Virus genome (UHGV): UHGV-2010328
DNA length: 35,365 nt
Direction: 5' to 3' (one strand)
Source: a virus
How positions within the stretch are numbered: position 1 is the first letter of the stretch; every line of letters begins with the position of its first letter. The translations under genes and the position numbers were made by a program. Below the pieces are notes generated by a model that ran no database searches, was not told where the DNA came from, and was given only the letters and a program-made list of their open reading frames with translations. Positions 1-28,731 of the stretch are shown piece by piece.

Positions 1-141
1 TTACTGCTTACACTGTAAGAACGCCGCAAACTCCGCTCCCCAGAAGCTCATCCGTATTTCGCACAGCGAACCGTGCAGCATCCAGATGATGAGGATTGCC
101 GTCACGCAGAACGTGATGGCCGTAAGCGATTTTTGCGACAT
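1..141 (-). CDS. Hok/Gef-family type I toxin (46-aa small membrane peptide)
   Basis: ATG at 141..139, stop TAA at 3..1. Translation MSQKSLTAITFCVTAILIIWMLHGSLCEIRMSFWGAEFAAFLQCKQ has an N-terminal TM helix and the Hok-like SLCEIR ... E(V/F)AAF motif. Below the ORF-track length cutoff. Confidence 0.6.
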   Translation of the reverse strand: MSQKSLTAITFCVTAILIIWMLHGSLCEIRMSFWGAEFAAFLQCKQ

Positions 142-331
142 AGCACTTGCTCCTTTTCCGGAGAGGCGCTAACCTTTCACTTGTCAAGGTAATGCGGTTA
201 GGGCCTCGGTTAAACAGAGATGTTTTCCGGGGCCTTTCCACATCTGGCCTTCGGGTATTCCCTCCGACCATCAGCCGAAAGGCACCCGCGCGTAATCTAT
301 CGCTTTTTTGTTGCTCCGGCAATTCTGCCTG
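142..331 (-). promoter_or_regulatory. putative hok leader / mok-sok-type control region (not resolved)
   Basis: Inference only: Hok-family genes are normally preceded by an overlapping mok frame and an antisense RNA. The 8..322 minus-strand ORF overlaps hok in another frame. Confidence 0.25.
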
Positions 332-592
332 TTAATTCTGAGGTAAAGGTAAACTCATCTGATTGTTTCCCCTGTGTGAAGCTGGCAGCTCATGCCACGG
401 GATACCATCTGAAGAGTGAACGCCGGAGGCGTGTTTCGATGTGAATTTATGGAAAGCTTCCAGTGTTGAGAAGCATACGCCGCATTCTAGGTTGTTACAT
501 TGGTAATACTTTTGCCGGACGGTGTTTGAATCATTTTCCGGACGACTTGTGCGGATACGGGCAGATGCGCCACAAAGCGGACAACGGAACAT
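332..592 (-). CDS. ogr: Ogr/Delta-family zinc-finger late-gene transcriptional activator
   Basis: 86-aa ORF beginning MFRCPLCGASARIRTSR ... YYQCNNLECG, a C-x2-C ... C-x4-C motif arrangement matching P2 Ogr (MFHCPLCQHAAHARTSR ... YHQCQNVNC). Confidence 0.8.
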   Translation of the reverse strand: MFRCPLCGASARIRTSRPENDSNTVRQKYYQCNNLECGVCFSTLEAFHKFTSKHASGVHSSDGIPWHELPASHRGNNQMSLPLPQN

Positions 593-916
593 TGCTACCC
601 CTCCATTTAACGTGATGCTTCCGTTATTTTTAGTTGCACTATGCAGATTCTAGCTGACTGAATCTTTGATTAAAAGTTCTTCTATGCTCATAACTCGATC
701 TCGTAAGAATCTCAACTTGTATAAATTTATTAACATAAATATATACTAATAATTAAAATAGTTGCGTTTGCTGCCATAATATGCAGTTAGCCATTACAGA
801 AGATGAATATTTAACCATAGGTAAGATATAAACTGGATGGTATAAAATACCTAGGTGAGTAACTAATTATATTTAATTATTTTGGATATTAGTCACTCAC
901 CGTGGTATTAGGGAAA

Positions 917-1321
917 CTAAATACTCTCTTGGTTCTTTTTGATTGTTTTTAGAGTTTTCAGATAATGGTTTTTCCTGTCAAAACTTTGTTTTACTAATTC
1001 TTTATCGGTTGGTGATAAATTTTCTATGTCATCCAATGTAAACTCATCTTTTATTTTTTCTTGTAGCATTCTCTCAAGCTTTTTATATTTCCTGATGGCG
1101 ATTTTGTTGTAAAACCAATTAACCATAAGAGGAAGAAATAAAGATATAAATACAGTCGACTTACTATAGTTTTCTATTCCTATTATATCCTTCACCCGCT
1201 CAGAAAAAGGCAGGGTGAGTATAATGCTGGCAATAATTGAAGCCAGAAAACCGTATGCCAATCTACGGACATCGTGGTTAGCCTCCTGGATTGCGGGAAT
1301 TGTGTCATTAGTTTTTGACAT
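917..1321 (-). CDS. hypothetical small membrane protein (two predicted TM helices, lysine/glutamate-rich C-terminal tail); cargo gene 2
   Basis: 134-aa ORF, ATG 1321..1319 preceded by GGAGG. Hydrophobic segments LAYGFLASIIASIILTLPF and STVFISLFLPLMVNWFY. AT-rich. Overlaps the upstream gene by 14 nt. Confidence 0.55.
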   Translation of the reverse strand: MSKTNDTIPAIQEANHDVRRLAYGFLASIIASIILTLPFSERVKDIIGIENYSKSTVFISLFLPLMVNWFYNKIAIRKYKKLERMLQEKIKDEFTLDDIENLSPTDKELVKQSFDRKNHYLKTLKTIKKNQESI

Positions 1322-1868
1322 GCCCCTTCTCCTCCGCGTTTTGTTTATCTATCATCTTTATAGAACTTTCATCTATAAACATACTGGCTTCCAGGAGGGC
1401 AATTATCATGCTTCCCAAAATAGAGGACAGTCTAATTGATGCTTTTTTTGAATCATCATTTTTTCCATCGTATTTTGAATAACCAAAATAATCTTCGAAT
1501 AGAAGGCTTTCAATGTCATCAAAGAAGAAAAAGGATGTAGTTGTAACAATTATTGGTTTTTTGTCTATTATCTGAAACTTTACATTTGTTTTATTGAATT
1601 TAATTGATGTGTCATTAACTATCTTAACTAGCTCCATCATGTTATTTGCTACTGGGCGATTAACTATACTCATTGTGAGTGATGGAGAAAATCCTGAATC
1701 ATCAAAATTCAAATAATACTGAATTACAGGTGATTCATCTTTGTCTTCTTTATCTATGAAACTTTGTATTATTTTTTTATTTAAAGTCGAGCCATCACTT
1801 TCATTATATAATTCAATATTATCATCATGTCTAAGGGCTACACTATCGCGAATCAAATCAATTAACAT
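1308..1868 (-). CDS. hypothetical protein, no recognisable motif; cargo gene 1
   Basis: ORF 1308..1874 begins with TTG; first ATG at 1868..1866 (MLIDLIRDSVAL...) with GAGG upstream. Very AT-rich, acidic, Asn/Lys/Ile-rich composition unlike the flanking phage genes. Confidence 0.5.
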   Translation of the reverse strand: MLIDLIRDSVALRHDDNIELYNESDGSTLNKKIIQSFIDKEDKDESPVIQYYLNFDDSGFSPSLTMSIVNRPVANNMMELVKIVNDTSIKFNKTNVKFQIIDKKPIIVTTTSFFFFDDIESLLFEDYFGYSKYDGKNDDSKKASIRLSSILGSMIIALLEASMFIDESSIKMIDKQNAEEKGHVKN

Positions 1869-2092
1869 TATCAAAAGACCTCAATTGTTATTTCATGCGT
1901 AATTATACTAAAAGTATCTTAAAAACAGCAACATTTTACATTGGTGATACCTATATGTTGATTGTCCCTCTGAAGAGGGGGGAGCTGCTTTTACAATAAT
2001 GAATGTAGGGCATTCTGGCGCAGAGCGGTCAGTCTGATAGGGTTGTGTCATAATCGTGTCAGTGCATGCCTGAACTAATACATCTAAGTTGC

Positions 2093-3193
2093 TCACTCTG
2101 TTTCTGCTATCCATTCCGGGATTTTTGCTTCAAGCTCAAGCTGTGTGGTAAAGCCACTGTTATCAATAGAATGCTCAACTTTTGCAATAATCCAGTCCTG
2201 ATTGTCGATGTCGCTTTTAAAGCCTGCCACCGTGCCATGCATTTCGGGGTAGAGTTCAGCGCGACCACGTGCCAGCGTGATGGAGAATGATGCGGCTCCG
2301 CGTTGTAGCTGTTGCCACTTTGCCGCCGCTGCGCGTCTTGCTGCCTGCTCGTTCTGATAAGTCTTGCGTAACACAAACACGTTGCCTTCCGCGCCTTCCA
2401 TATAGTCGCCTTCCCGGCTGCTGCTTTTCTCCTTTTTCGGTTTGCGGCGTTTCACGCTGACTTTTTTCTTTTTCCCGTAATTAAGATCAAGCCAGTAGGC
2501 GCGTACACCCGTATACGCCTCGCGGTCAGCAATGCGAAACTGATGGCGATCGCCGCTGCTGCGTGTGATGGCAAACGATGGCAATGGTTTTCCCTGCGCG
2601 TTCACGCCACCGCCTGGCATGATGAATAACAGATTACCGCTTTTTACCGTGGTGATTGCGCCCAGCATTTCCGCCATGCGCGTAAGGAAGGACATGTCAC
2701 TTTCTTCGGTCTGGTCGGCGTGGTCGATTTCGATATCCATCAGCATTTCGCTAATTTGCGGTTTCAGACCGTACCGATGAGCGATGGCGGATACCACACG
2801 CTCAACGGTCACATCATGCCAGGACACCTCACGTTTAACGTTAAATTCATCCCGAAAATCTGCGCTTCTGGCCGAAATGGTCAGCCTGTCCGGCGGTCCT
2901 TCGTGAGCGATTTCATCAACAATGTAAGTGCCTTTTTCTGTCAGCGGTTCTCCTTTCCAGCCAATGAGAACCGTCAGGCGCGCGCCCCGTGGCGGTAGCT
3001 GCAACTGACCATCCGCATCATCCAGCGTGATGGTGAGCTGGTCCGCCTCAAATCCCCGGTTGTCGGTCAGTGACAGGCTCATCAGGCGCTCTGCCACGCC
3101 TGACAGCGTTTTACCCTCCGCGAGAATATCAAAATCCGGCATTTTCACGGGGTCTGTGCCCTGACTGAGCAATTGCATGGTGGTGTCGGTCAT
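2093..3193 (-). CDS. D: tail protein D (P2 gpD-like)
   Basis: 366 aa from ATG 3193..3191 (MTDTTMQLLSQGTDP...) with GGGAGGG upstream. The in-frame upstream extension to 3325 is rejected. Length and position fit gpD. Confidence 0.8.
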   Translation of the reverse strand: MTDTTMQLLSQGTDPVKMPDFDILAEGKTLSGVAERLMSLSLTDNRGFEADQLTITLDDADGQLQLPPRGARLTVLIGWKGEPLTEKGTYIVDEIAHEGPPDRLTISARSADFRDEFNVKREVSWHDVTVERVVSAIAHRYGLKPQISEMLMDIEIDHADQTEESDMSFLTRMAEMLGAITTVKSGNLLFIMPGGGVNAQGKPLPSFAITRSSGDRHQFRIADREAYTGVRAYWLDLNYGKKKKVSVKRRKPKKEKSSSREGDYMEGAEGNVFVLRKTYQNEQAARRAAAAKWQQLQRGAASFSITLARGRAELYPEMHGTVAGFKSDIDNQDWIIAKVEHSIDNSGFTTQLELEAKIPEWIAETE

Positions 3194-3350
3194 CTGTTCC
3201 CTCCCTGTGCGGCATGGTCGCATGTGCGTGCGGAGGGGGTTACTGCTTTTTGTTGTCGCCGGGTCGGGAGAACGGCGCAGGGGTGAGATTACGCGCGTGG
3301 TGGGTGATGATTGTTGCCGAATCATTTAACGGATACAAGGGGCTGAAGCT

Positions 3351-4535
3351 ATGAGTGAAACTCGTTTTCATGGTGCCCGTGTTACGGAAAATACCGACCT
3401 GGTAACAGCGATTAACGATGTTGATTCCAGCGTTATCGGTATCGTGGCAACGGCGGATGATGCGGACGCGAAGCTGTTCCCGCTGAACAAGCCCACACTG
3501 CTGACCCGCGTCAATGACGTGCTGGGAAAATGCGGGACAACGGGGACGCTTTATCGTGCACTTAAGGCCATCGCAGACCAGGTGAGCACAAAGGTGATCG
3601 TCGTTCGCGTGGCTGAACACAAAGAAGAAGACGGAAAGACGCAGGATCAACTGGTTATCGGTGGTTCTGAGGATGACGGCAGCTATACGGGGATGTATGC
3701 GCTGCTTGTTGCAGAGCAGGATGAAAGCATCGGATACCGTCCGCGTATTCTGGCCGCGCCGGAGCTGGACACGGAGGCTGTAACAAAATCCCTGTGCGTG
3801 ATTGCAGGTAAACTGCGCGCGTTTGTGTATGCCTCATGTTACGGCTGTAACACGATGGCTGAGGCGATTACCTACCGCCAGAAATTCAACGAACGTGAGG
3901 TGATGCTCTTATGGCCGGACTTCATCGCCTACAACCCGAAAAGTGGCAAAAACGAAACGTTCCCCGCGCCTGCCTATGCGTGCGGCCTTCGTGCGTACAT
4001 TGACCATGAGCAGGGCTGGCACAAATCATTGTCCAACGTTCCGGTTAAAAATGTGCTGGGGATGTCGAGGCATGTGTTCTGGTCGTTGCAGGCCGAAGAC
4101 AGCGATGCCAACAGCCTCAACAACAAAGAAATCACGACCATTATTCGTCGCAACGGGTTCCGCTTCTGGGGCAACCGCACACCGGAAACGAACGCCTACA
4201 TCTTTGAGGTGTATACCCGAACCGCACAGGTGCTGGCTGATTCAATTGCGGAAGCGCAGTTTGAAACCATCGACAGTCCACTGACGCCTGCGAATGTGAA
4301 GGATGTTATCAGTGCCATCAGGGCAAAACTGGATTCGCTGGTTACTGCCGGGAAACTGATTGGTGCGGAGTGCTGGTATGACGTGGTGGATAACGGCACC
4401 ACGAATTTACGTCAGGGGCGTGTGCGTATTCGCTACAAATATACGCCCGTTCCGCCACTGGAAGACATGGAGCTTTACCAGACGTTTACTGATGAATACT
4501 TTGAACCCGCATTTGCGGTGCTGGGAGGTGCCTGA
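3351..4535 (+). CDS. FI: contractile tail sheath protein (gpFI-like)
   Basis: 394 aa, RBS AAGGGG before ATG 3351. Followed by tube, E/E', tape measure and U in canonical order. Confidence 0.85.
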   Translation: MSETRFHGARVTENTDLVTAINDVDSSVIGIVATADDADAKLFPLNKPTLLTRVNDVLGKCGTTGTLYRALKAIADQVSTKVIVVRVAEHKEEDGKTQDQLVIGGSEDDGSYTGMYALLVAEQDESIGYRPRILAAPELDTEAVTKSLCVIAGKLRAFVYASCYGCNTMAEAITYRQKFNEREVMLLWPDFIAYNPKSGKNETFPAPAYACGLRAYIDHEQGWHKSLSNVPVKNVLGMSRHVFWSLQAEDSDANSLNNKEITTIIRRNGFRFWGNRTPETNAYIFEVYTRTAQVLADSIAEAQFETIDSPLTPANVKDVISAIRAKLDSLVTAGKLIGAECWYDVVDNGTTNLRQGRVRIRYKYTPVPPLEDMELYQTFTDEYFEPAFAVLGGA

Positions 4536-5047
4536 TGGCTGTGCCAAAACATCTTCGCTTTTTTACGCTGTTTGTGGATGGTGAAAACGAAGTGGGTAAG
4601 GTGACGTCCGTCACTCTGCCTAAGCTGACGCGCAAAACCGACAGCTACCGGGGGGGCGGCATGATGGGTGCGGTAAGTATTGATCTCGGTCTGGAAGACT
4701 CCGCGCTTGATGCGAGCTTTGTCATGGGGGGCGCAGTTCGTGAGCTGTTCCTTAAGTATGGCGGCACGATTGACGGCACGCTGCTGCGTTTTGCGGGTGA
4801 ATACTACACCGATGCAGAAAGTGACCTGTATGAAGTCGAAATGCGCGGACGTGTGACGGAAATTGATATGGGGGAAGCCAAACAGGGCGAAGCCACATCA
4901 CACACTTACGCCATTAAAAACACCTACTACAAGCTGAGTGTTAACGATCGCCCGTTGTGGGAGATTGACCTGCTGAACTTCATTTACCGGAAGGACGGCA
5001 AGGACATTGTGCCCGATCGCATCCGTTCCGCGCTCGGGCTTGGCTGA
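4535..5047 (+). CDS. FII: tail tube protein (gpFII-like)
   Basis: 170 aa. ATG overlaps the FI stop (TGATG). Confidence 0.85.
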   Translation: MAVPKHLRFFTLFVDGENEVGKVTSVTLPKLTRKTDSYRGGGMMGAVSIDLGLEDSALDASFVMGGAVRELFLKYGGTIDGTLLRFAGEYYTDAESDLYEVEMRGRVTEIDMGEAKQGEATSHTYAIKNTYYKLSVNDRPLWEIDLLNFIYRKDGKDIVPDRIRSALGLG

Positions 5048-25831: not shown

Positions 25832-26209
25832 TTATCCGCGTATATACCTAAAGGACTGAGGTGGTACAGCGCCAGGTATCAATTCATTAAGTGGAATTGG
25901 AGTATCATAGCGCAGAGGGTTTTTTACTTCTATTGCGAATCCCTTGTCTCTTTCTGAAAAATATTCATCAAAAAAATCCCGCGTAATACCTGCATACTTT
26001 TTTGTCATATTCCATAATTCATCTGGCTGAGATGACAAAACCTTTTCAATTTCAAACTCACCAATTACCTTTCCGACGGGCATTGTTGCATAAATAATAA
26101 CCGCTCGGACTTCTTTGTTCCGAAAAATTGTCTTCCTGAATTCGAATTTTTTATATCCATTTAAAATGGATTCAGCGAACTCTGGTTTAATCGACAATAA
26201 AATTTTCAT
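25832..26209 (-). CDS. stand-alone ASCH/PUA-like domain protein (125 aa)
   Basis: MKILLSIKPEFAESILNGYKKFEFRK... matches the ASCH-type N-terminal motif. ATG 26209..26207 overlaps the upstream gene by 23 nt. AT-rich. Confidence 0.55.
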   Translation of the reverse strand: MKILLSIKPEFAESILNGYKKFEFRKTIFRNKEVRAVIIYATMPVGKVIGEFEIEKVLSSQPDELWNMTKKYAGITRDFFDEYFSERDKGFAIEVKNPLRYDTPIPLNELIPGAVPPQSFRYIRG

Positions 26210-27242
26210 TAACCTTTCCCGCGCTTAAAACAGCTTTGAAGTGAACATCACTTAACGTGAAGAACCCTGAATAGCTTGGAGTATAACCTAAAATACTCAA
26301 CAATTCATCTCTAATTATTCTTTTTTGCAAAGGGAAATTGTAAGTTAACTTAATTACATGTGGAGGATAACATCTGCTATAATAAGCATATAATTCTTCA
26401 TCAGAAAAAATACTGGCGCCTCCACAATAAGACTTAAACTCATCATATGATAAAAATTCTCGAATGTTTTTATACTCTTGTAATGTACAAACAGAAGTAA
26501 CCACCGACCGATATTTCGCCGCTCCCTGTCCATCTGTCGTTCGATAAATAATTATATTATCTCCTGGCTGAAGAAGCTCCATGCCTTTCATCGCGCCAAT
26601 ATATATCTTATGAATACTATTAGTATAAGTAACATCTTCTAAAATAGAATCATTTTCATTTTTTAAAATTGACTCCGGGAAAAGCCTTGAATGAAACTCA
26701 GGTTTAATGGCTAATAAAAAATTTCTTCCATTCATTTTTATCATAGGATAATTATTATAAAATGATGCTGCTGATGGCTTCCAGTTAAAATCCTTAAAGT
26801 AGACACCTTCACAACCGTTTTCCGTCTCAAGATTTTTTCTTGAACACAATTTAAAACCATAGCGTTCAAGTAAACGAATCAATCCTTGATGTTTGTCAAA
26901 GATAGTAACGTACACTTCCTGAATATCATGAGGCATTGCAAAGTCAAATATTTTTCTTACAAATCTCTCCCCCATTTTCGTTCCACGAGCATCAATTTTA
27001 AATGTTCCGCATTTAAGACGTTTTTTCATAGGGAAAGATGGGGTCATGTCATTTAATTCCTCATTTTCAATTTTGAGGTATAAAAAACCATCTATTTTCC
27101 CATAATCATCATAAGATACGTATGCTTTCTCATTTCTTTTCTTTAAGAACCAGCTTTCAAAAGTTGGGTAGTCATTTTTAAGCGAGTCAAAAAAAACATC
27201 TGAGAGGTCAACCTTCCCAAATTCGACATAACTAAGAGACAT
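26187..27242 (-). CDS. GNAT-like acetyltransferase fused to a C-terminal ASCH/PUA-like domain (351 aa)
   Basis: ATG 27242..27240 with AGGA RBS (ORF-track 5' extension rejected). N-terminal half has GNAT-like core motifs (ARGTKMGERFVRKIF ... EVYVTIFDKHQGLIRLLERYGFK); C-terminal half has ...FLLAIKPEFHSRLF... like the downstream ASCH-like protein. Domain assignment is by eye. Confidence 0.5.
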   Translation of the reverse strand: MSLSYVEFGKVDLSDVFFDSLKNDYPTFESWFLKKRNEKAYVSYDDYGKIDGFLYLKIENEELNDMTPSFPMKKRLKCGTFKIDARGTKMGERFVRKIFDFAMPHDIQEVYVTIFDKHQGLIRLLERYGFKLCSRKNLETENGCEGVYFKDFNWKPSAASFYNNYPMIKMNGRNFLLAIKPEFHSRLFPESILKNENDSILEDVTYTNSIHKIYIGAMKGMELLQPGDNIIIYRTTDGQGAAKYRSVVTSVCTLQEYKNIREFLSYDEFKSYCGGASIFSDEELYAYYSRCYPPHVIKLTYNFPLQKRIIRDELLSILGYTPSYSGFFTLSDVHFKAVLSAGKVNENFIVD

Positions 27243-27354
27243 TGTGCCATCCTTTTCAGTAGGTATTTTGCAAAAAACGTTACTGTATCTCAAAATATAT
27301 GTAAATAAACTTAGATCAAAAAAATGCTTACTAACGCTTTGTCTTACCGGGGCT

Positions 27355-27428
27355 GTGTGTGTCGAAATACTCGCTTAGTGGCAGGGTGTCAACTACATCT
27401 ACCTCTTCTGGTGCAATATCAGACTCTG
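27355..27428 (-). pseudogene. parM-derived remnant (about 72 bp, roughly 80% identical to parM 28399-28470)
   Basis: tgtgtcgaaatactcgct is identical to parM 28405-28422, with similarity continuing about 50 bp. Lies between parR and the GNAT gene with no intact reading frame. Confidence 0.5.
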
Positions 27429-27455
27429 CCCGGCGCAGAGTATTCCGACTGTTGG

Positions 27456-27767
27456 TCATTGAGGGAACATGGCCTGTATATTCTTTTTCATCTGTGTAAC
27501 GTTGTTATTCTCTGTATCCTGCTGTGGTGATTTATTTCGTGGCGTTGGTGTGAGCGGCTGACTGAATCCGCCTTCAGGCCATTCAGCCAGCCAGTAAGCA
27601 AAGGCAGGATCGGTTTTGATGAGTGCCAGTCCAGCCAGAAATGCCGCGCGTTGCGCGCGGCTGCGTTCGGAGGCTGGCAGGTTGTCGAGATAATTACACG
27701 CTTTCCGTTCACTCTTGACGGCTGCTGGCTTCAGATAGAAACTTATTCTTCTGGTTAATGTCGCCAT
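27456..27767 (-). CDS. parR: ParR/StbB-like partition adaptor protein
   Basis: ATG 27767..27765 with AGGAG RBS (ORF-track extension rejected); 103 aa, MATLTRRISFYLKPAAV...ERSRAQRAAFLAGLALI resembles R1 ParR. Immediately downstream of parM. Confidence 0.7.
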   Translation of the reverse strand: MATLTRRISFYLKPAAVKSERKACNYLDNLPASERSRAQRAAFLAGLALIKTDPAFAYWLAEWPEGGFSQPLTPTPRNKSPQQDTENNNVTQMKKNIQAMFPQ

Positions 27768-27771
27768 GGGG

Positions 27772-28731
27772 TTACTCCTTATCCATAGCGTACAGACCGT
27801 TAACCAGAGCAAACTGTGGCACCCCGTCCGCGATGAAAGTCGCATTAACTCCGCAGGCTTCGCGGATCGCGGGTGCCACAATCTCCGCCCCGCCACCGAC
27901 AACCATCACCCGCCCATACCCCGAAAAACCAGCCAGCGCGCGGATCACGCGTTGTTTCAGTGTTTCCTCCTTTTCACGAATAACTGCCATCAGGCTGGCG
28001 TAATGTGCGTTATTGTGGATGTGCTGGCGCAGCCAGGCTTCATCGTGGCGATGTTCGATAATGGTATTGGCGATGTGGTGGCTGGTACGCATACCGTTGG
28101 TGGCCATCACCGACAGAACGGCATCAGCCATCAGAGAAACGCCTACGTGTGGATCGCAAAACACCTGGCTGATACCTGCCAGTTGTCCCTGAACCTTTGC
28201 CACATCCAGCGTGGTTCCGCCTAAATCCACAATCAGCAGGGATTCAAACGGACTCATGTCAGCCAGTGCCTTAAAGCCAGCCGGAATGGATTCAGGCATA
28301 ACCCGTACGTTACGGATAGTGAATGCTTCGCCGTTCTGGTACTCCACCGGGCGTATGACGTTCGCTTTTTTGCGGTTGATGTTGGCCATGTCCGGTTGTG
28401 CGTTTGTGTCGAAATACTCGCTCAGTGGCAGGGTGACAACCACATCCACCTCCTGTGGCGTGATGCCTGATTTGACCAGCGCGTGATGAATGGCAATGAC
28501 ATTCACATCGCTGTACTGGTATTGCGTGTCGGTCGTCTGGACAAAGCGATCGCTGACCGGATCAAAACCATAGCGCACGCCATCAAGCATGTAGTTCGCG
28601 GGCTGCATGCCACCGAACGGCGCAGACCATTCCGATTTGAAGCTGTTCGGGCTGATGGCGTTGCGGCGTTCGCCGTTCTCAGTCCATGCCAGCTTGATGT
28701 TGGTGGAGCCGTCGTCGATACAAATTTTCAT
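27772..28731 (-). CDS. parM: ParM/StbA-like actin-type partition ATPase
   Basis: 319 aa, MKICIDDGSTNIKLAW...ISPNSFK...YSDVNVIAIHHAL...VMPESIPAG...DLGGTTLD...VVGGGAE; close to plasmid R1 ParM throughout by recollection. Confidence 0.85.
   Translation of the reverse strand: MKICIDDGSTNIKLAWTENGERRNAISPNSFKSEWSAPFGGMQPANYMLDGVRYGFDPVSDRFVQTTDTQYQYSDVNVIAIHHALVKSGITPQEVDVVVTLPLSEYFDTNAQPDMANINRKKANVIRPVEYQNGEAFTIRNVRVMPESIPAGFKALADMSPFESLLIVDLGGTTLDVAKVQGQLAGISQVFCDPHVGVSLMADAVLSVMATNGMRTSHHIANTIIEHRHDEAWLRQHIHNNAHYASLMAVIREKEETLKQRVIRALAGFSGYGRVMVVGGGAEIVAPAIREACGVNATFIADGVPQFALVNGLYAMDKE

What the first reader, a model, noticed from the sequence alone, without database searches (positions are those of the whole stretch)
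1..331. Hok/Gef-family toxin gene at the ogr-distal edge of the element
A 46-aa ORF missed by the ORF track encodes a TM helix plus the Hok-like SLCEIR...EFAAF motif. It lies 190 bp beyond the ogr stop on the same strand. Hok loci are post-segregational killing or stress-toxin modules normally controlled by an overlapping mok frame and an antisense RNA, and the 8..322 ORF overlaps in a second frame. Together with parMR this gives the region a plasmid-like maintenance toolkit, though hok may lie outside the prophage boundary.
Basis: partly seen in the sequence, partly recalled or inferred. Interest (0 to 1): 0.5.

Follow-up and report, generated by a model that had tools for sequence, protein, structure and literature searches.

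The report
Prophage-borne hok/sok toxin–antitoxin locus
The 46-codon gene is a real Hok-family membrane toxin with its antisense-RNA antidote, carried as cargo just inside the end of a P2-like E. coli prophage; it is already annotated and catalogued, so it is ordinary.

Summary
Confirmed, but already known. ORF 1..141(-) encodes a 46-aa peptide that passes Pfam HOK_GEF (29.9 bits, cut-off 22) and PHROG 251 (E 1e-22). RefSeq annotates it as "Hok/Gef family protein". The identical peptide is entry 72_1621 in a 2026 Hok catalogue, which cloned it for toxicity assays.

The RNA architecture of a hok/sok locus is present. There is a 146-nt leader (Rfam RF01794, E 2e-9, below gathering). The 5' end pairs with a 3' element 59-65 nt outside the window, supported by compensatory changes. 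A Sok-like antisense gene (promoter 147-175, RNA about 183-243, + strand) aligns with the annotated K-12 sokB and sokC.

First, the overlapping ORF 8..322 is not a conserved mok: in 19 of the 23 other homologues I could not find a leader ORF covering the hok ribosome-binding site, while hok itself is under purifying selection (dN/dS 0-0.37). Second, hok is not outside the element. In the near-identical E. coli M10 lysogen the 25-bp att core, which is the ihfA terminator, lies 264-288 nt beyond the hok stop, and P88-type phage genomes carry the locus.

The window cuts off the hok 3' UTR.

The parts
1..141 (-). hok coding sequence: 46 aa, Hok cluster '72', stop codon at 1-3
   Evidence: ORF list. 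Pfam PF01848 29.9 bits against cut-off 22. PHROG 251 E 1e-22. RefSeq WP_000078916.1 'Hok/Gef family protein' at the 100% identical M10 locus. dN/dS 0-0.37. Identical to 72_1621 in bioRxiv 10.1101/2025.08.07.668861 Table S2.
150..155 (-). Shine-Dalgarno AAGGAG, 8 nt upstream of the hok AUG
   Evidence: Read from the sequence. GGAG is kept in 23 of 24 homologues.
142..287 (-). hok mRNA 5' leader; predicted transcription start at G287
   Evidence: Rfam RF01794 full-length hit 287..128(-), 48.4 bits, E 2e-9, below the gathering score of 59. The same model hits the sense strand of the K-12 hokC and hokB leaders.
273..287 (-). tac-like 5' element GGGUGCCUUUCGGCU; it pairs with the fbi-like 3' element that lies 49-65 nt outside the window
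   Evidence: MFE fold of the M10-extended transcript. RNAalifold consensus, and 4 of 4 pairs in helix 43-46:385-388 show compensatory changes.
163..207 (-). Sok-target hairpin: arms 197-207 and 163-175, variable loop 176-196 complementary to the Sok 5' tail
   Evidence: Consensus helix, alignment columns 117-129:152-163, 98.5% of cells paired. Coordinates.
126..141 (-). hok AUG and first codons; upstream half of a long-range helix that sequesters the start codon
   Evidence: Helix columns 186-201:291-306, 14 pairs, 99.7% paired, changes on one side only such as U-G to C-G.
21..36 (-). Downstream half of that helix (dcb-like), inside the AEFAAF codons
   Evidence: Same helix. This explains the near-invariant nucleotides of this coding stretch.
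294..322 (-). Predicted hok promoter: -35 TTGCCG (322-317), 17-nt spacer, -10 TAGATT (299-294), 6 nt, then G287
   Evidence: Read from the sequence. A -10 of TAGATT, TAGAAT or TAAATT is kept at the same distance in 20 of 22 loci from different genomic contexts. The stringent consensus scan did not find it.
147..175 (+). Predicted Sok promoter: -35 TTGCTC (147-152), 17-nt spacer, -10 TAACCT (170-175)
   Evidence: Aligns column for column with the promoters upstream of the annotated K-12 sokB and sokC. The consensus scan did not find it.
183..243 (+). Predicted Sok-like antisense RNA, about 61 nt, complementary to hok mRNA nt 45-105
   Evidence: The 5' and 3' ends are inferred from the alignment with the annotated sokB and sokC. 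It has the same architecture: a free 5' tail, a GGCCUCGG...CCGGGGCC hairpin and a U-containing tail. The inner stem changes compensatorily between alleles.
8..322 (-). Overlapping 104-codon open frame. It is specific to this allele and is not a conserved mok.
   Evidence: The frame is closed by TAA or TAG at -46 and by TGA at +80 in most homologues. No Pfam, PHROG or NCBIfam hit.
332..592 (-). ogr/delta-type zinc-finger late activator: the upstream neighbour, given for context
   Evidence: Pfam PF04606 E 5e-14. RefSeq annotation.

Best explanation
Window 1-322, plus about 125 nt beyond the window's left end, is a hok/sok-type type I toxin-antitoxin module. It is carried as cargo by a P88-like (P2-like, Peduoviridae) prophage, between ogr and the att site at the ihfA terminator. 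A promoter just downstream of the ogr stop makes an mRNA of about 410 nt from G287 on the minus strand. In the full-length RNA the 5' end pairs with a 3' element, and the hok AUG pairs with the AEFAAF codons, so the toxin is not translated. A constitutive antisense RNA of about 61 nt (Sok-like, + strand, about 183-243) pairs with leader nt 45-105, starting at the loop of a conserved hairpin, and keeps the mRNA silent or degraded. If Sok is depleted, the 46-aa Hok peptide is made, inserts in the inner membrane and kills or lyses the cell. Sok depletion could follow loss of the prophage, transcription shut-off by an infecting phage, or prophage induction. Shown here: family membership of the peptide, conservation and covariation of the mRNA structure, homology of the Sok promoter and hairpin to annotated sokB and sokC, location inside the prophage, and purifying selection on hok. 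Inferred: transcript ends, 3' processing, the mode of Sok action, and the biological role. Unlike the R1 paradigm, this Hok cluster seems to work without a mok leader ORF. hok has its own AAGGAG ribosome-binding site.
For: Peptide: Pfam HOK_GEF above cut-off. PHROG 251. 67 homologue clusters, and every source-given name among them is Hok. C27, E28, E37 and C44 are invariant in the protein alignment. The nearest K-12 paralogue is HokA, 17 of 40 identical. RNA: Rfam hit on the leader. Fold z = -7.2 with 5'-3' closure. The consensus structure is 98% paired against 38-43% when partners are slid, with 15 covarying pairs including all 4 pairs of the tac/fbi extension. Sequence homology between loci in unrelated contexts ends a few nt beyond the fbi element. 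Sok: promoter and hairpin align with the annotated sokB and sokC. Selection: dN/dS 0-0.37, for example 8 synonymous and 0 nonsynonymous differences against L012. Cargo status: the 25-bp att repeat lies 264-288 nt beyond the hok stop in M10. The locus is present in phage genome records such as P88, PhiR44_2 and Chuche. The same ogr-hok-ihfA order occurs in Salmonella. [quoted passage not shown]
Against: There is no expression data for this locus. The Rfam score is below the curated gathering threshold (48.4 against 59). The NCBIfam Hok models score far below their cut-offs. Both promoters are too weak for the stringent consensus scan. A fold of a 3'-truncated mRNA did not show opening of the hok start region, so activation by 3' processing is not supported in silico. 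[quoted passage not shown] If that requirement held, most alleles would be silent. Several chromosomal hok loci were reported not to mediate post-segregational killing (cited in the preprint's introduction). The 3' UTR was studied in the M10 lysogen (100% identical over window 1-700), not in the window's own genome.
Confidence: 0.92

Rival explanations
1. The locus is an inactive relic. The sequence is hok-like but translationally silent, because the mok leader ORF on which hok translation depends in plasmid R1 is missing. It would be carried passively by the phage, like several chromosomal hok loci of E. coli K-12.
For: No conserved mok in any frame. In R1, mok translation up to the hok SD is mandatory (PMC9841398). 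Chromosomal hokA, hokB and hokC loci were reported unable to mediate post-segregational killing. The truncated-mRNA fold keeps the AUG paired.
Against: The hok frame is under purifying selection in alleles that carry a stop at the mok position (L012 and L056: 7-8 synonymous and 0 nonsynonymous changes). The promoter -10, tac/fbi, Sok promoter and hairpin are all conserved with compensatory changes. There is a strong AAGGAG SD 8 nt from the AUG. No IS disruption is present, unlike K-12 hokA.
Confidence: 0.1
2. The conserved element is only an RNA, for example an ogr 3' UTR, a terminator or an sRNA, and the 46-codon frame is incidental.
For: The RNA structure is strongly conserved. The locus directly follows ogr, and no terminator was predicted between them.
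Against: Pfam and PHROG hits to the peptide. The excess of synonymous change is the opposite of what RNA-only constraint would give. The same module occurs without ogr, next to lom, tail-fibre genes, yafO or fic. The identical peptide was cloned as a toxin representative.
Confidence: 0.02
3. This is an alternative on role, not on identity. The module mainly serves the phage's lytic cycle or excludes other phages, rather than stabilising the prophage. Hok would be made after induction or superinfection and would speed lysis or abort infection.
For: The different, 51-aa hokW-sokW locus of Stx prophage Sp5 increases phage release about two-fold after mitomycin C (PMC8621323). That paper also cites phage defence by plasmid hok/sok.
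Against: Nothing in the sequence discriminates between these roles. The Hok survey found no enrichment of hok near defence systems (section title seen). An integrated prophage is seldom lost, so an addiction role is also unproven.
Confidence: 0.4

Closest known systems
hok/sok/mok of plasmid R1 (parB), the paradigm type I toxin-antitoxin system
   Same: A small membrane toxin of the Pfam HOK_GEF family. A long structured mRNA closed by 5'-3' (tac/fbi-like) pairing. A cis-encoded antisense RNA of about 60 nt, transcribed from inside the leader, with a free 5' tail and one hairpin. A target hairpin whose loop meets the Sok tail.
   Different: The peptide is 46 aa rather than 52. There is no conserved mok leader ORF. 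The Rfam leader model scores 48 bits, against 110-118 for K-12 loci. The locus sits on an integrated P2-like prophage, not a plasmid.
HokA (hokA/sokA) of the E. coli chromosome
   Same: It is the closest characterised paralogue: 17 of 40 identical, sharing WM..SLCE and AAFL.CK. It gives the best NCBIfam hit. JGI names one close homologue 'HokA'.
   Different: The score is far below the HokA equivalog cut-off (34 against 89 bits). The peptide is four residues shorter. K-12 hokA has an annotated mokA pseudogene and is disrupted by IS150.
Hok 60%-identity cluster '72' (sequences 72_1621 and 72_1589) in Escalera-Maurer et al., bioRxiv 10.1101/2025.08.07.668861
   Same: 72_1621 is residue-for-residue the window's peptide. 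72_1589 is the variant found next to lom in Stx phages. Both were cloned for toxicity assays as representatives of a highly abundant cluster.
   Different: That study analysed only the coding sequences. Sok, mok, mRNA structure and the P2-like ogr-att context were not described.
hokW-sokW of Stx2 prophage Sp5/933W (Takada et al. 2021, PMC8621323)
   Same: A prophage-borne hok/sok locus. It shows that such loci can be functional TA systems and can affect phage release. PHROG 251, which the window peptide matches, is labelled 'MokW-like host killing'.
   Different: HokW is a different, 51-aa HokC/D-like peptide (primer sequence MKQQKAM). The 933W relative of the window's locus is a second locus next to lom that is unannotated in AF125520.

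Membership tests
Hok/Gef toxin family (Pfam PF01848) | Match to the family HMM above the curated gathering score | tested here: met
   29.9 bits against a cut-off of 22, E 4.1e-7, residues 7-44 on profile positions 5-42 of 42. PHROG 251 E 1.3e-22.
Hok/Gef toxin family (Pfam PF01848) | A peptide of about 50 aa with one N-terminal transmembrane helix | tested here: met
   46 aa. Residues 9-27 have mean hydropathy 2.02. This is a sequence property only; membrane insertion was not tested.
Hok/Gef toxin family (Pfam PF01848) | Conserved L-C-E motif, a downstream Glu and a C-terminal Cys or Tyr (logo positions C31, E32, E41 and 48 in the 2026 survey) | tested here: met
   C27, E28, E37 and C44 are invariant in 20 subfamily members. 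Logo description.
Hok/Gef toxin family (Pfam PF01848) | Toxic when expressed | not testable with these tools
   The identical peptide 72_1621 was cloned for the assay. The text names only 19_179, 60_1482 and 69_1540 as non-toxic out of 45 tested. Toxicity of this peptide is therefore inferred by exclusion.
HokA equivalog (NCBIfam NF007290) | Score above the curated equivalog cut-off | tested here: not met
   34 bits against a cut-off of 89. The Hok subfamily model NF007279 gives 21.6 against 73. It is therefore a distinct Hok cluster and not HokA.
hok/sok/mok type I TA locus (R1 paradigm) | Long-range 5' (tac) to 3' (fbi) pairing that closes the full-length mRNA | tested here: met
   Present in the MFE fold and in the consensus of 24 sequences. 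Helix 34-40:392-398 is 97.5% paired. Helix 43-46:385-388 has compensatory changes in all 4 pairs. The 3' partner lies outside the window and was read from the M10 flank.
hok/sok/mok type I TA locus (R1 paradigm) | A cis-encoded antisense Sok RNA with its own promoter inside the leader | tested here: inconclusive
   Promoter, start, hairpin and tail align with the annotated K-12 sokB and sokC. Transcription itself was not observed, and the consensus promoter scan found nothing.
hok/sok/mok type I TA locus (R1 paradigm) | An overlapping mok leader ORF whose translation is coupled to hok | tested here: not met
   ORF 8..322 is open only in this allele group. 19 of the 23 other homologues have no ATG, GTG or TTG ORF covering the hok SD in the +2 frame, and the hok frame has none in any sequence.
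hok/sok/mok type I TA locus (R1 paradigm) | Match to Rfam RF01794 (hok leader / Sok region) at the gathering score | tested here: not met
   48.4 bits against 59, although full-length with E 2e-9. K-12 hokC and hokB score 118 and 110.
hok/sok/mok type I TA locus (R1 paradigm) | 3' processing that activates the mRNA, and RNase III cleavage of the Sok-mRNA duplex | not testable with these tools
   The fold of a 3'-truncated RNA shows the 5' end re-pairing with nt 48-59, but the AUG stays paired. This is not informative either way.
Cargo (moron) of a P2-like / P88-like prophage | Lies between the att repeats and is present in phage genome records | tested here: met
   The 25-bp repeat GGCCGCTCTGCGGCCTTTTTTCTTT flanks the M10 prophage, and the hok stop is 263 nt inside it. 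The locus is found in P88, P884B11, PhiR44_2, Chuche and 500465-2.

The most novel reading that the evidence does not exclude
Hok cluster 72, including this locus, is a naturally mok-independent hok/sok variant. hok would be translated from its own AAGGAG site, and Sok would control it without any leader-peptide coupling. Possible routes are RNase III-dependent decay, or freeing the CCUCUCC anti-SD arm of the target hairpin to occlude the ribosome-binding site. The hypervariable Sok 5' tail and target loop would then define non-cross-reacting specificity classes that let several copies coexist in one genome.
Probability: 0.45. Interest if true: 0.35.

Novelty: already known. Interest (0 to 1): 0.15.

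Why it matters
It matters little beyond correct annotation. The gene is already named in RefSeq and PHROGs, and the identical peptide is in a published catalogue. There are three practical points. (1) Prophage boundary callers, including whatever produced this window, cut at the hok stop codon. They therefore drop the hok 3' UTR, which carries an essential regulatory element, and about 290 bp of phage DNA. (2) This abundant Hok cluster occurs next to ogr in roughly a fifth of complete E. coli genomes and appears to lack mok. That would make it a convenient natural system for asking whether leader-peptide coupling is dispensable in hok/sok regulation. (3) The label 'MokW-like' and the Rfam family name 'sok' are both misleading for this locus.

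Tried and rejected
I used an alignment instead.
- The genome-contig scan gave only 6 loci. The 80 best viral loci all encode the identical peptide, so divergent loci had to be fetched protein by protein.
- The consensus promoter scan found no promoter on either strand. The promoters were placed by homology to K-12 sokB and sokC and by conservation.
- I first assumed this was the published hokW-sokW. I rejected that because HokW is a different 51-aa peptide.
- I considered an in-frame Mok, as annotated for MokC. I rejected it because the hok frame is closed 6-27 nt upstream of the AUG, with no start codon, in all 24 sequences.
- The fold of a 3'-truncated mRNA did not reveal an activation switch.
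- Literature searches for hokX/hokS/hokG/hokH, Peduoviridae plus hok, and Xuanwuvirus/P88 plus hok gave nothing useful.
- I looked at a YUNR U-turn motif in the target loop by eye. I did not use it, because a 4-nt degenerate motif is expected by chance in a 21-nt loop.

Full report
**Observation**

The minus-strand ORF 1..141 is present exactly as described. It encodes MSQKSLTAITFCVTAILIIWMLHGSLCEIRMSFWGAEFAAFLQCKQ. The Ogr/Delta zinc-finger gene is at 332..592 on the same strand, which leaves a 190-bp spacer. A 104-codon ORF, 8..322, overlaps in another frame. The window begins precisely at the hok stop codon.

**Identity of the peptide**

- It passes Pfam HOK_GEF: 29.9 bits against a curated cut-off of 22, E 4e-7.
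- It matches PHROG 251 'MokW-like host killing' at E 1e-22.
- A search of 5.8 billion proteins returned 67 clusters. Every name that a source gives for them is a Hok name ('Hok/Gef family protein', once 'protein HokA'). Most are 46 aa, from Escherichia, Shigella, Salmonella and Klebsiella.
- In an alignment of 20 of them, M1, Q3, K4, G24, C27, E28, A36, E37, A39, A40, L42, Q43, C44 and K45 are invariant.
- The nearest K-12 paralogue is HokA, with 17 of 40 residues identical. The NCBIfam HokA equivalog model scores only 34 bits against a cut-off of 89. This is therefore a separate Hok cluster.
- Residues 9-27 form the hydrophobic helix.
- Across homologues dN/dS is 0-0.37. Against L012 there are 8 synonymous and 0 nonsynonymous differences. 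The frame is therefore selected as a protein.

**Source and annotation**

Window 1-700 is 100% identical to E. coli M10 (NZ_CP010200.1). There RefSeq annotates 'Hok/Gef family protein' WP_000078916.1 next to an 'ogr/Delta-like zinc finger family protein'. Of 5,426 complete E. coli genomes, 1,553 have a match, and 1,159 have a match covering at least 80% of the ogr-plus-hok query. The window as a whole is not M10: identity is 99.5% over positions 1-4700.

Phage genome records of the P88 type carry the same ogr-hok segment at 94-96% identity. These include P88, P884B11, PhiR44_2, Chuche, 500465-2 and Citrobacter phage Shae_phiSM; the P88 record is classified as Peduoviridae, genus Xuanwuvirus. 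Stx phages such as 933W carry the hok module alone at 82% identity. IMG/VR holds 310 contigs that encode a relative.

**Prophage boundary**

In M10 the prophage sits between ihfA and btuC, which are adjacent in K-12. Homology to the empty K-12 site ends at L001 position 3737 on one side and resumes on the other with a 25-bp overlap, GGCCGCTCTGCGGCCTTTTTTCTTT. This is the ihfA terminator, and it is present at both junctions.

Window position 1 corresponds to L001 position 4001. The att core therefore lies 264-288 nt to the left of the window, and hok is inside the element. A Salmonella prophage has the same order, GpD-ogr-hok-ihfA.

**The hok mRNA**

- *Leader.* Rfam model RF01794 matches 287..128(-) over its full length at 48.4 bits, E 2e-9. 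This is below the gathering score of 59. Although the family is named 'sok', the model is sense to the hok leader. In K-12 it hits the hokC and hokB strand, while the annotated sokC and sokB are on the opposite strand.
- *Promoter.* A hok promoter can be read directly after the ogr stop: TTGCCG (322-317), 17 nt, TAGATT (299-294), 6 nt, then G287. The -10 box is kept at the same distance in loci from unrelated contexts.
- *Fold.* Extending the transcript with the M10 flank gives a 413-nt RNA that folds at -180 kcal/mol, z = -7.2. The first 15 nt (GGGUGCCUUUCGGCU) pair with ...GGUCGAUAAGGCACCC, which lies 49-65 nt beyond the window. A terminator hairpin follows at L001 3914..3887.
- *Covariation.* I aligned 24 sequences at 74-98% identity, taken from P2-like, lambdoid and other contexts. 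RNAalifold keeps the 5'-3' closure. All four pairs of its extension covary: UA/CG, CG/GC, GC/AU, and GU/CG/GC. For the whole consensus structure 98.0% of cells are paired, against 38-43% when partners are slid. There are 15 pairs with changes on both sides, and 0 of 500 shuffles reach the observed values. The structure was derived from these same sequences, so the slid control is favourable by construction. The compensatory changes are not affected by that.
- *Start-codon helix.* A second long-range helix pairs the hok AUG region (141-126) with the AEFAAF codons (36-21). This explains their near-invariant nucleotides.
- *Module boundary.* Similarity between loci in different contexts ends a few nucleotides after GGCACCC. 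The mobile module therefore runs from the promoter to the fbi element.

**Sok**

On the plus strand, TTGCTC (147-152), 17 nt, TAACCT (170-175), 7 nt, then G183 aligns with the promoters and start sites of the annotated K-12 sokB and sokC. The predicted 61-nt RNA (183-243) has a free 5' tail, a GGCCUCGG...CCGGGGCC hairpin and a U-containing tail, like SokB and SokC. The inner stem differs compensatorily between alleles (UUAAACA/UGUUUU against GUUAAC/GUUGAC).

Sok is complementary to leader nt 45-105. Its 5' tail meets the loop (176-196) of a conserved hairpin with arms at 197-207 and 163-175. That loop and tail form the most variable stretch of the module. The tandem copies in Salmonella differ there.

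**mok**

In that frame, 11 of the 24 sequences have TAA or TAG at position -46 relative to the hok AUG and no start codon until +77, which is the position of TTG in the window allele. Eight more likewise lack a start codon upstream of the hok AUG. Most sequences also terminate at +80, where the window has TGC instead of TGT. The other overlapping frame and the hok frame itself contain no conserved start upstream. The ORF has no family hit.

In R1, mok translation up to the hok SD is required for hok translation (PMC9841398). Here hok has AAGGAG 8 nt from its AUG, and it is under purifying selection even in alleles with a stop at the mok position. I infer that this cluster does not use mok. The 2026 Hok survey explicitly did not analyse Mok.

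**Comparison with what is known**

The published hokW-sokW of prophage Sp5/933W is a different, 51-aa Hok. The 933W relative of this locus lies next to lom and is unannotated in AF125520.

The survey by Escalera-Maurer et al. (bioRxiv 10.1101/2025.08.07.668861) reports the following:
- It catalogues 32,532 loci and 1,264 distinct peptides.
- It finds 6,290 homologues in IMG/VR, and Hok in 9.3% of Escherichia phages.
- It finds 23% of chromosomal hok genes in prophages, against 5% expected.
- Its Table S2 lists 72_1621, identical to the window's peptide, as a cloned representative of a high-abundance cluster. Of the 45 clones tested, 42 were toxic, and 72_1621 is not among the three named non-toxic ones.

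**Mechanism and role**

The best-supported reading is a functional hok/sok-type type I TA module. It is silent while Sok is made and lethal when Sok decays. Whether it stabilises the prophage, aborts superinfection or assists lysis after induction cannot be decided from sequence. Lysis assistance has been shown for the different hokW-sokW locus (PMC8621323). A fold of a 3'-truncated mRNA re-pairs the 5' end with nt 48-59 but does not open the AUG, so the activation step remains inferred.

**Verdict**

This is a correct and careful first-stage call of something that is already annotated and catalogued. The only mildly new point is the apparent absence of mok in this abundant cluster.

Noticed in passing
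window 636-2082: An AT-rich island (GC about 29%, against about 53% on either side) holds two overlapping minus-strand ORFs, 917-1321 (134 aa) and 1308-1874 (188 aa). Neither has a Pfam or PADLOC hit. The island is absent from phage P88, where window positions 635 and 2083 are contiguous. It is probably an inserted cargo or moron between ogr and gpD.
   Followed up: partly
window 25832-28731: ORF 26187-27293(-) matches the PADLOC candidate defence protein PDC-M11A (E 5e-131). It is flanked by an ASCH-domain gene (25832-26209) and a full ParM actin-like segregation ATPase (27772-28731; StbA_N and ParM_N, E 1e-81 and 2e-69). A plasmid-type segregation gene in an integrated P2-like prophage is unusual. 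I did not search for parR.
   Followed up: partly
window position 1; loci L015, L017, L021 and others (length 1641): Many IMG/VR prophage contigs end exactly at the hok stop codon, as this window does. Boundary calling at gene ends drops the hok 3' UTR (fbi element and terminator) and about 290 bp of phage DNA, including the att core.
   Followed up: yes
L104 902-1054 and L105 3067-3218; window 128-287: Rfam RF01794, named 'sok antitoxin', matches the strand of the hok mRNA leader and not the strand of the annotated sokC and sokB RNAs. Strand calls made from this family are therefore inverted.
   Followed up: yes
L098 1501-1641 and 1991-2131; L099 1501-1641 and 1995-2135: Salmonella contigs carry two tandem copies of this Hok cluster about 490 bp apart, next to a YafO-toxin gene. 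The copies differ mainly in the Sok 5' tail and target loop, which is consistent with diverged antisense specificity.
   Followed up: partly
L005, L006, L009: Near-identical hok loci (72-98% peptide identity) occur in assemblies labelled Planococcaceae MAG, Vagococcus sp. and Xanthomonas pisi. Part of L005 is masked with N. Enterobacterial contamination of those assemblies is the most likely explanation.
   Followed up: no
L102 1500-1800 (phage 933W, AF125520 about 45.5 kb): Stx phages carry a second hok-type locus of this 46-aa cluster, immediately upstream of lom. It is unannotated in the 933W record and distinct from the published hokW-sokW.
   Followed up: partly
L001 3738-3930 (left of the window): Between the hok terminator and the att core there are about 150 nt of phage DNA with a further hairpin (L001 3816-3837). 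The corresponding stretch of P88 is longer and carries an annotated 80-aa hypothetical ORF. Function unknown.
   Followed up: no
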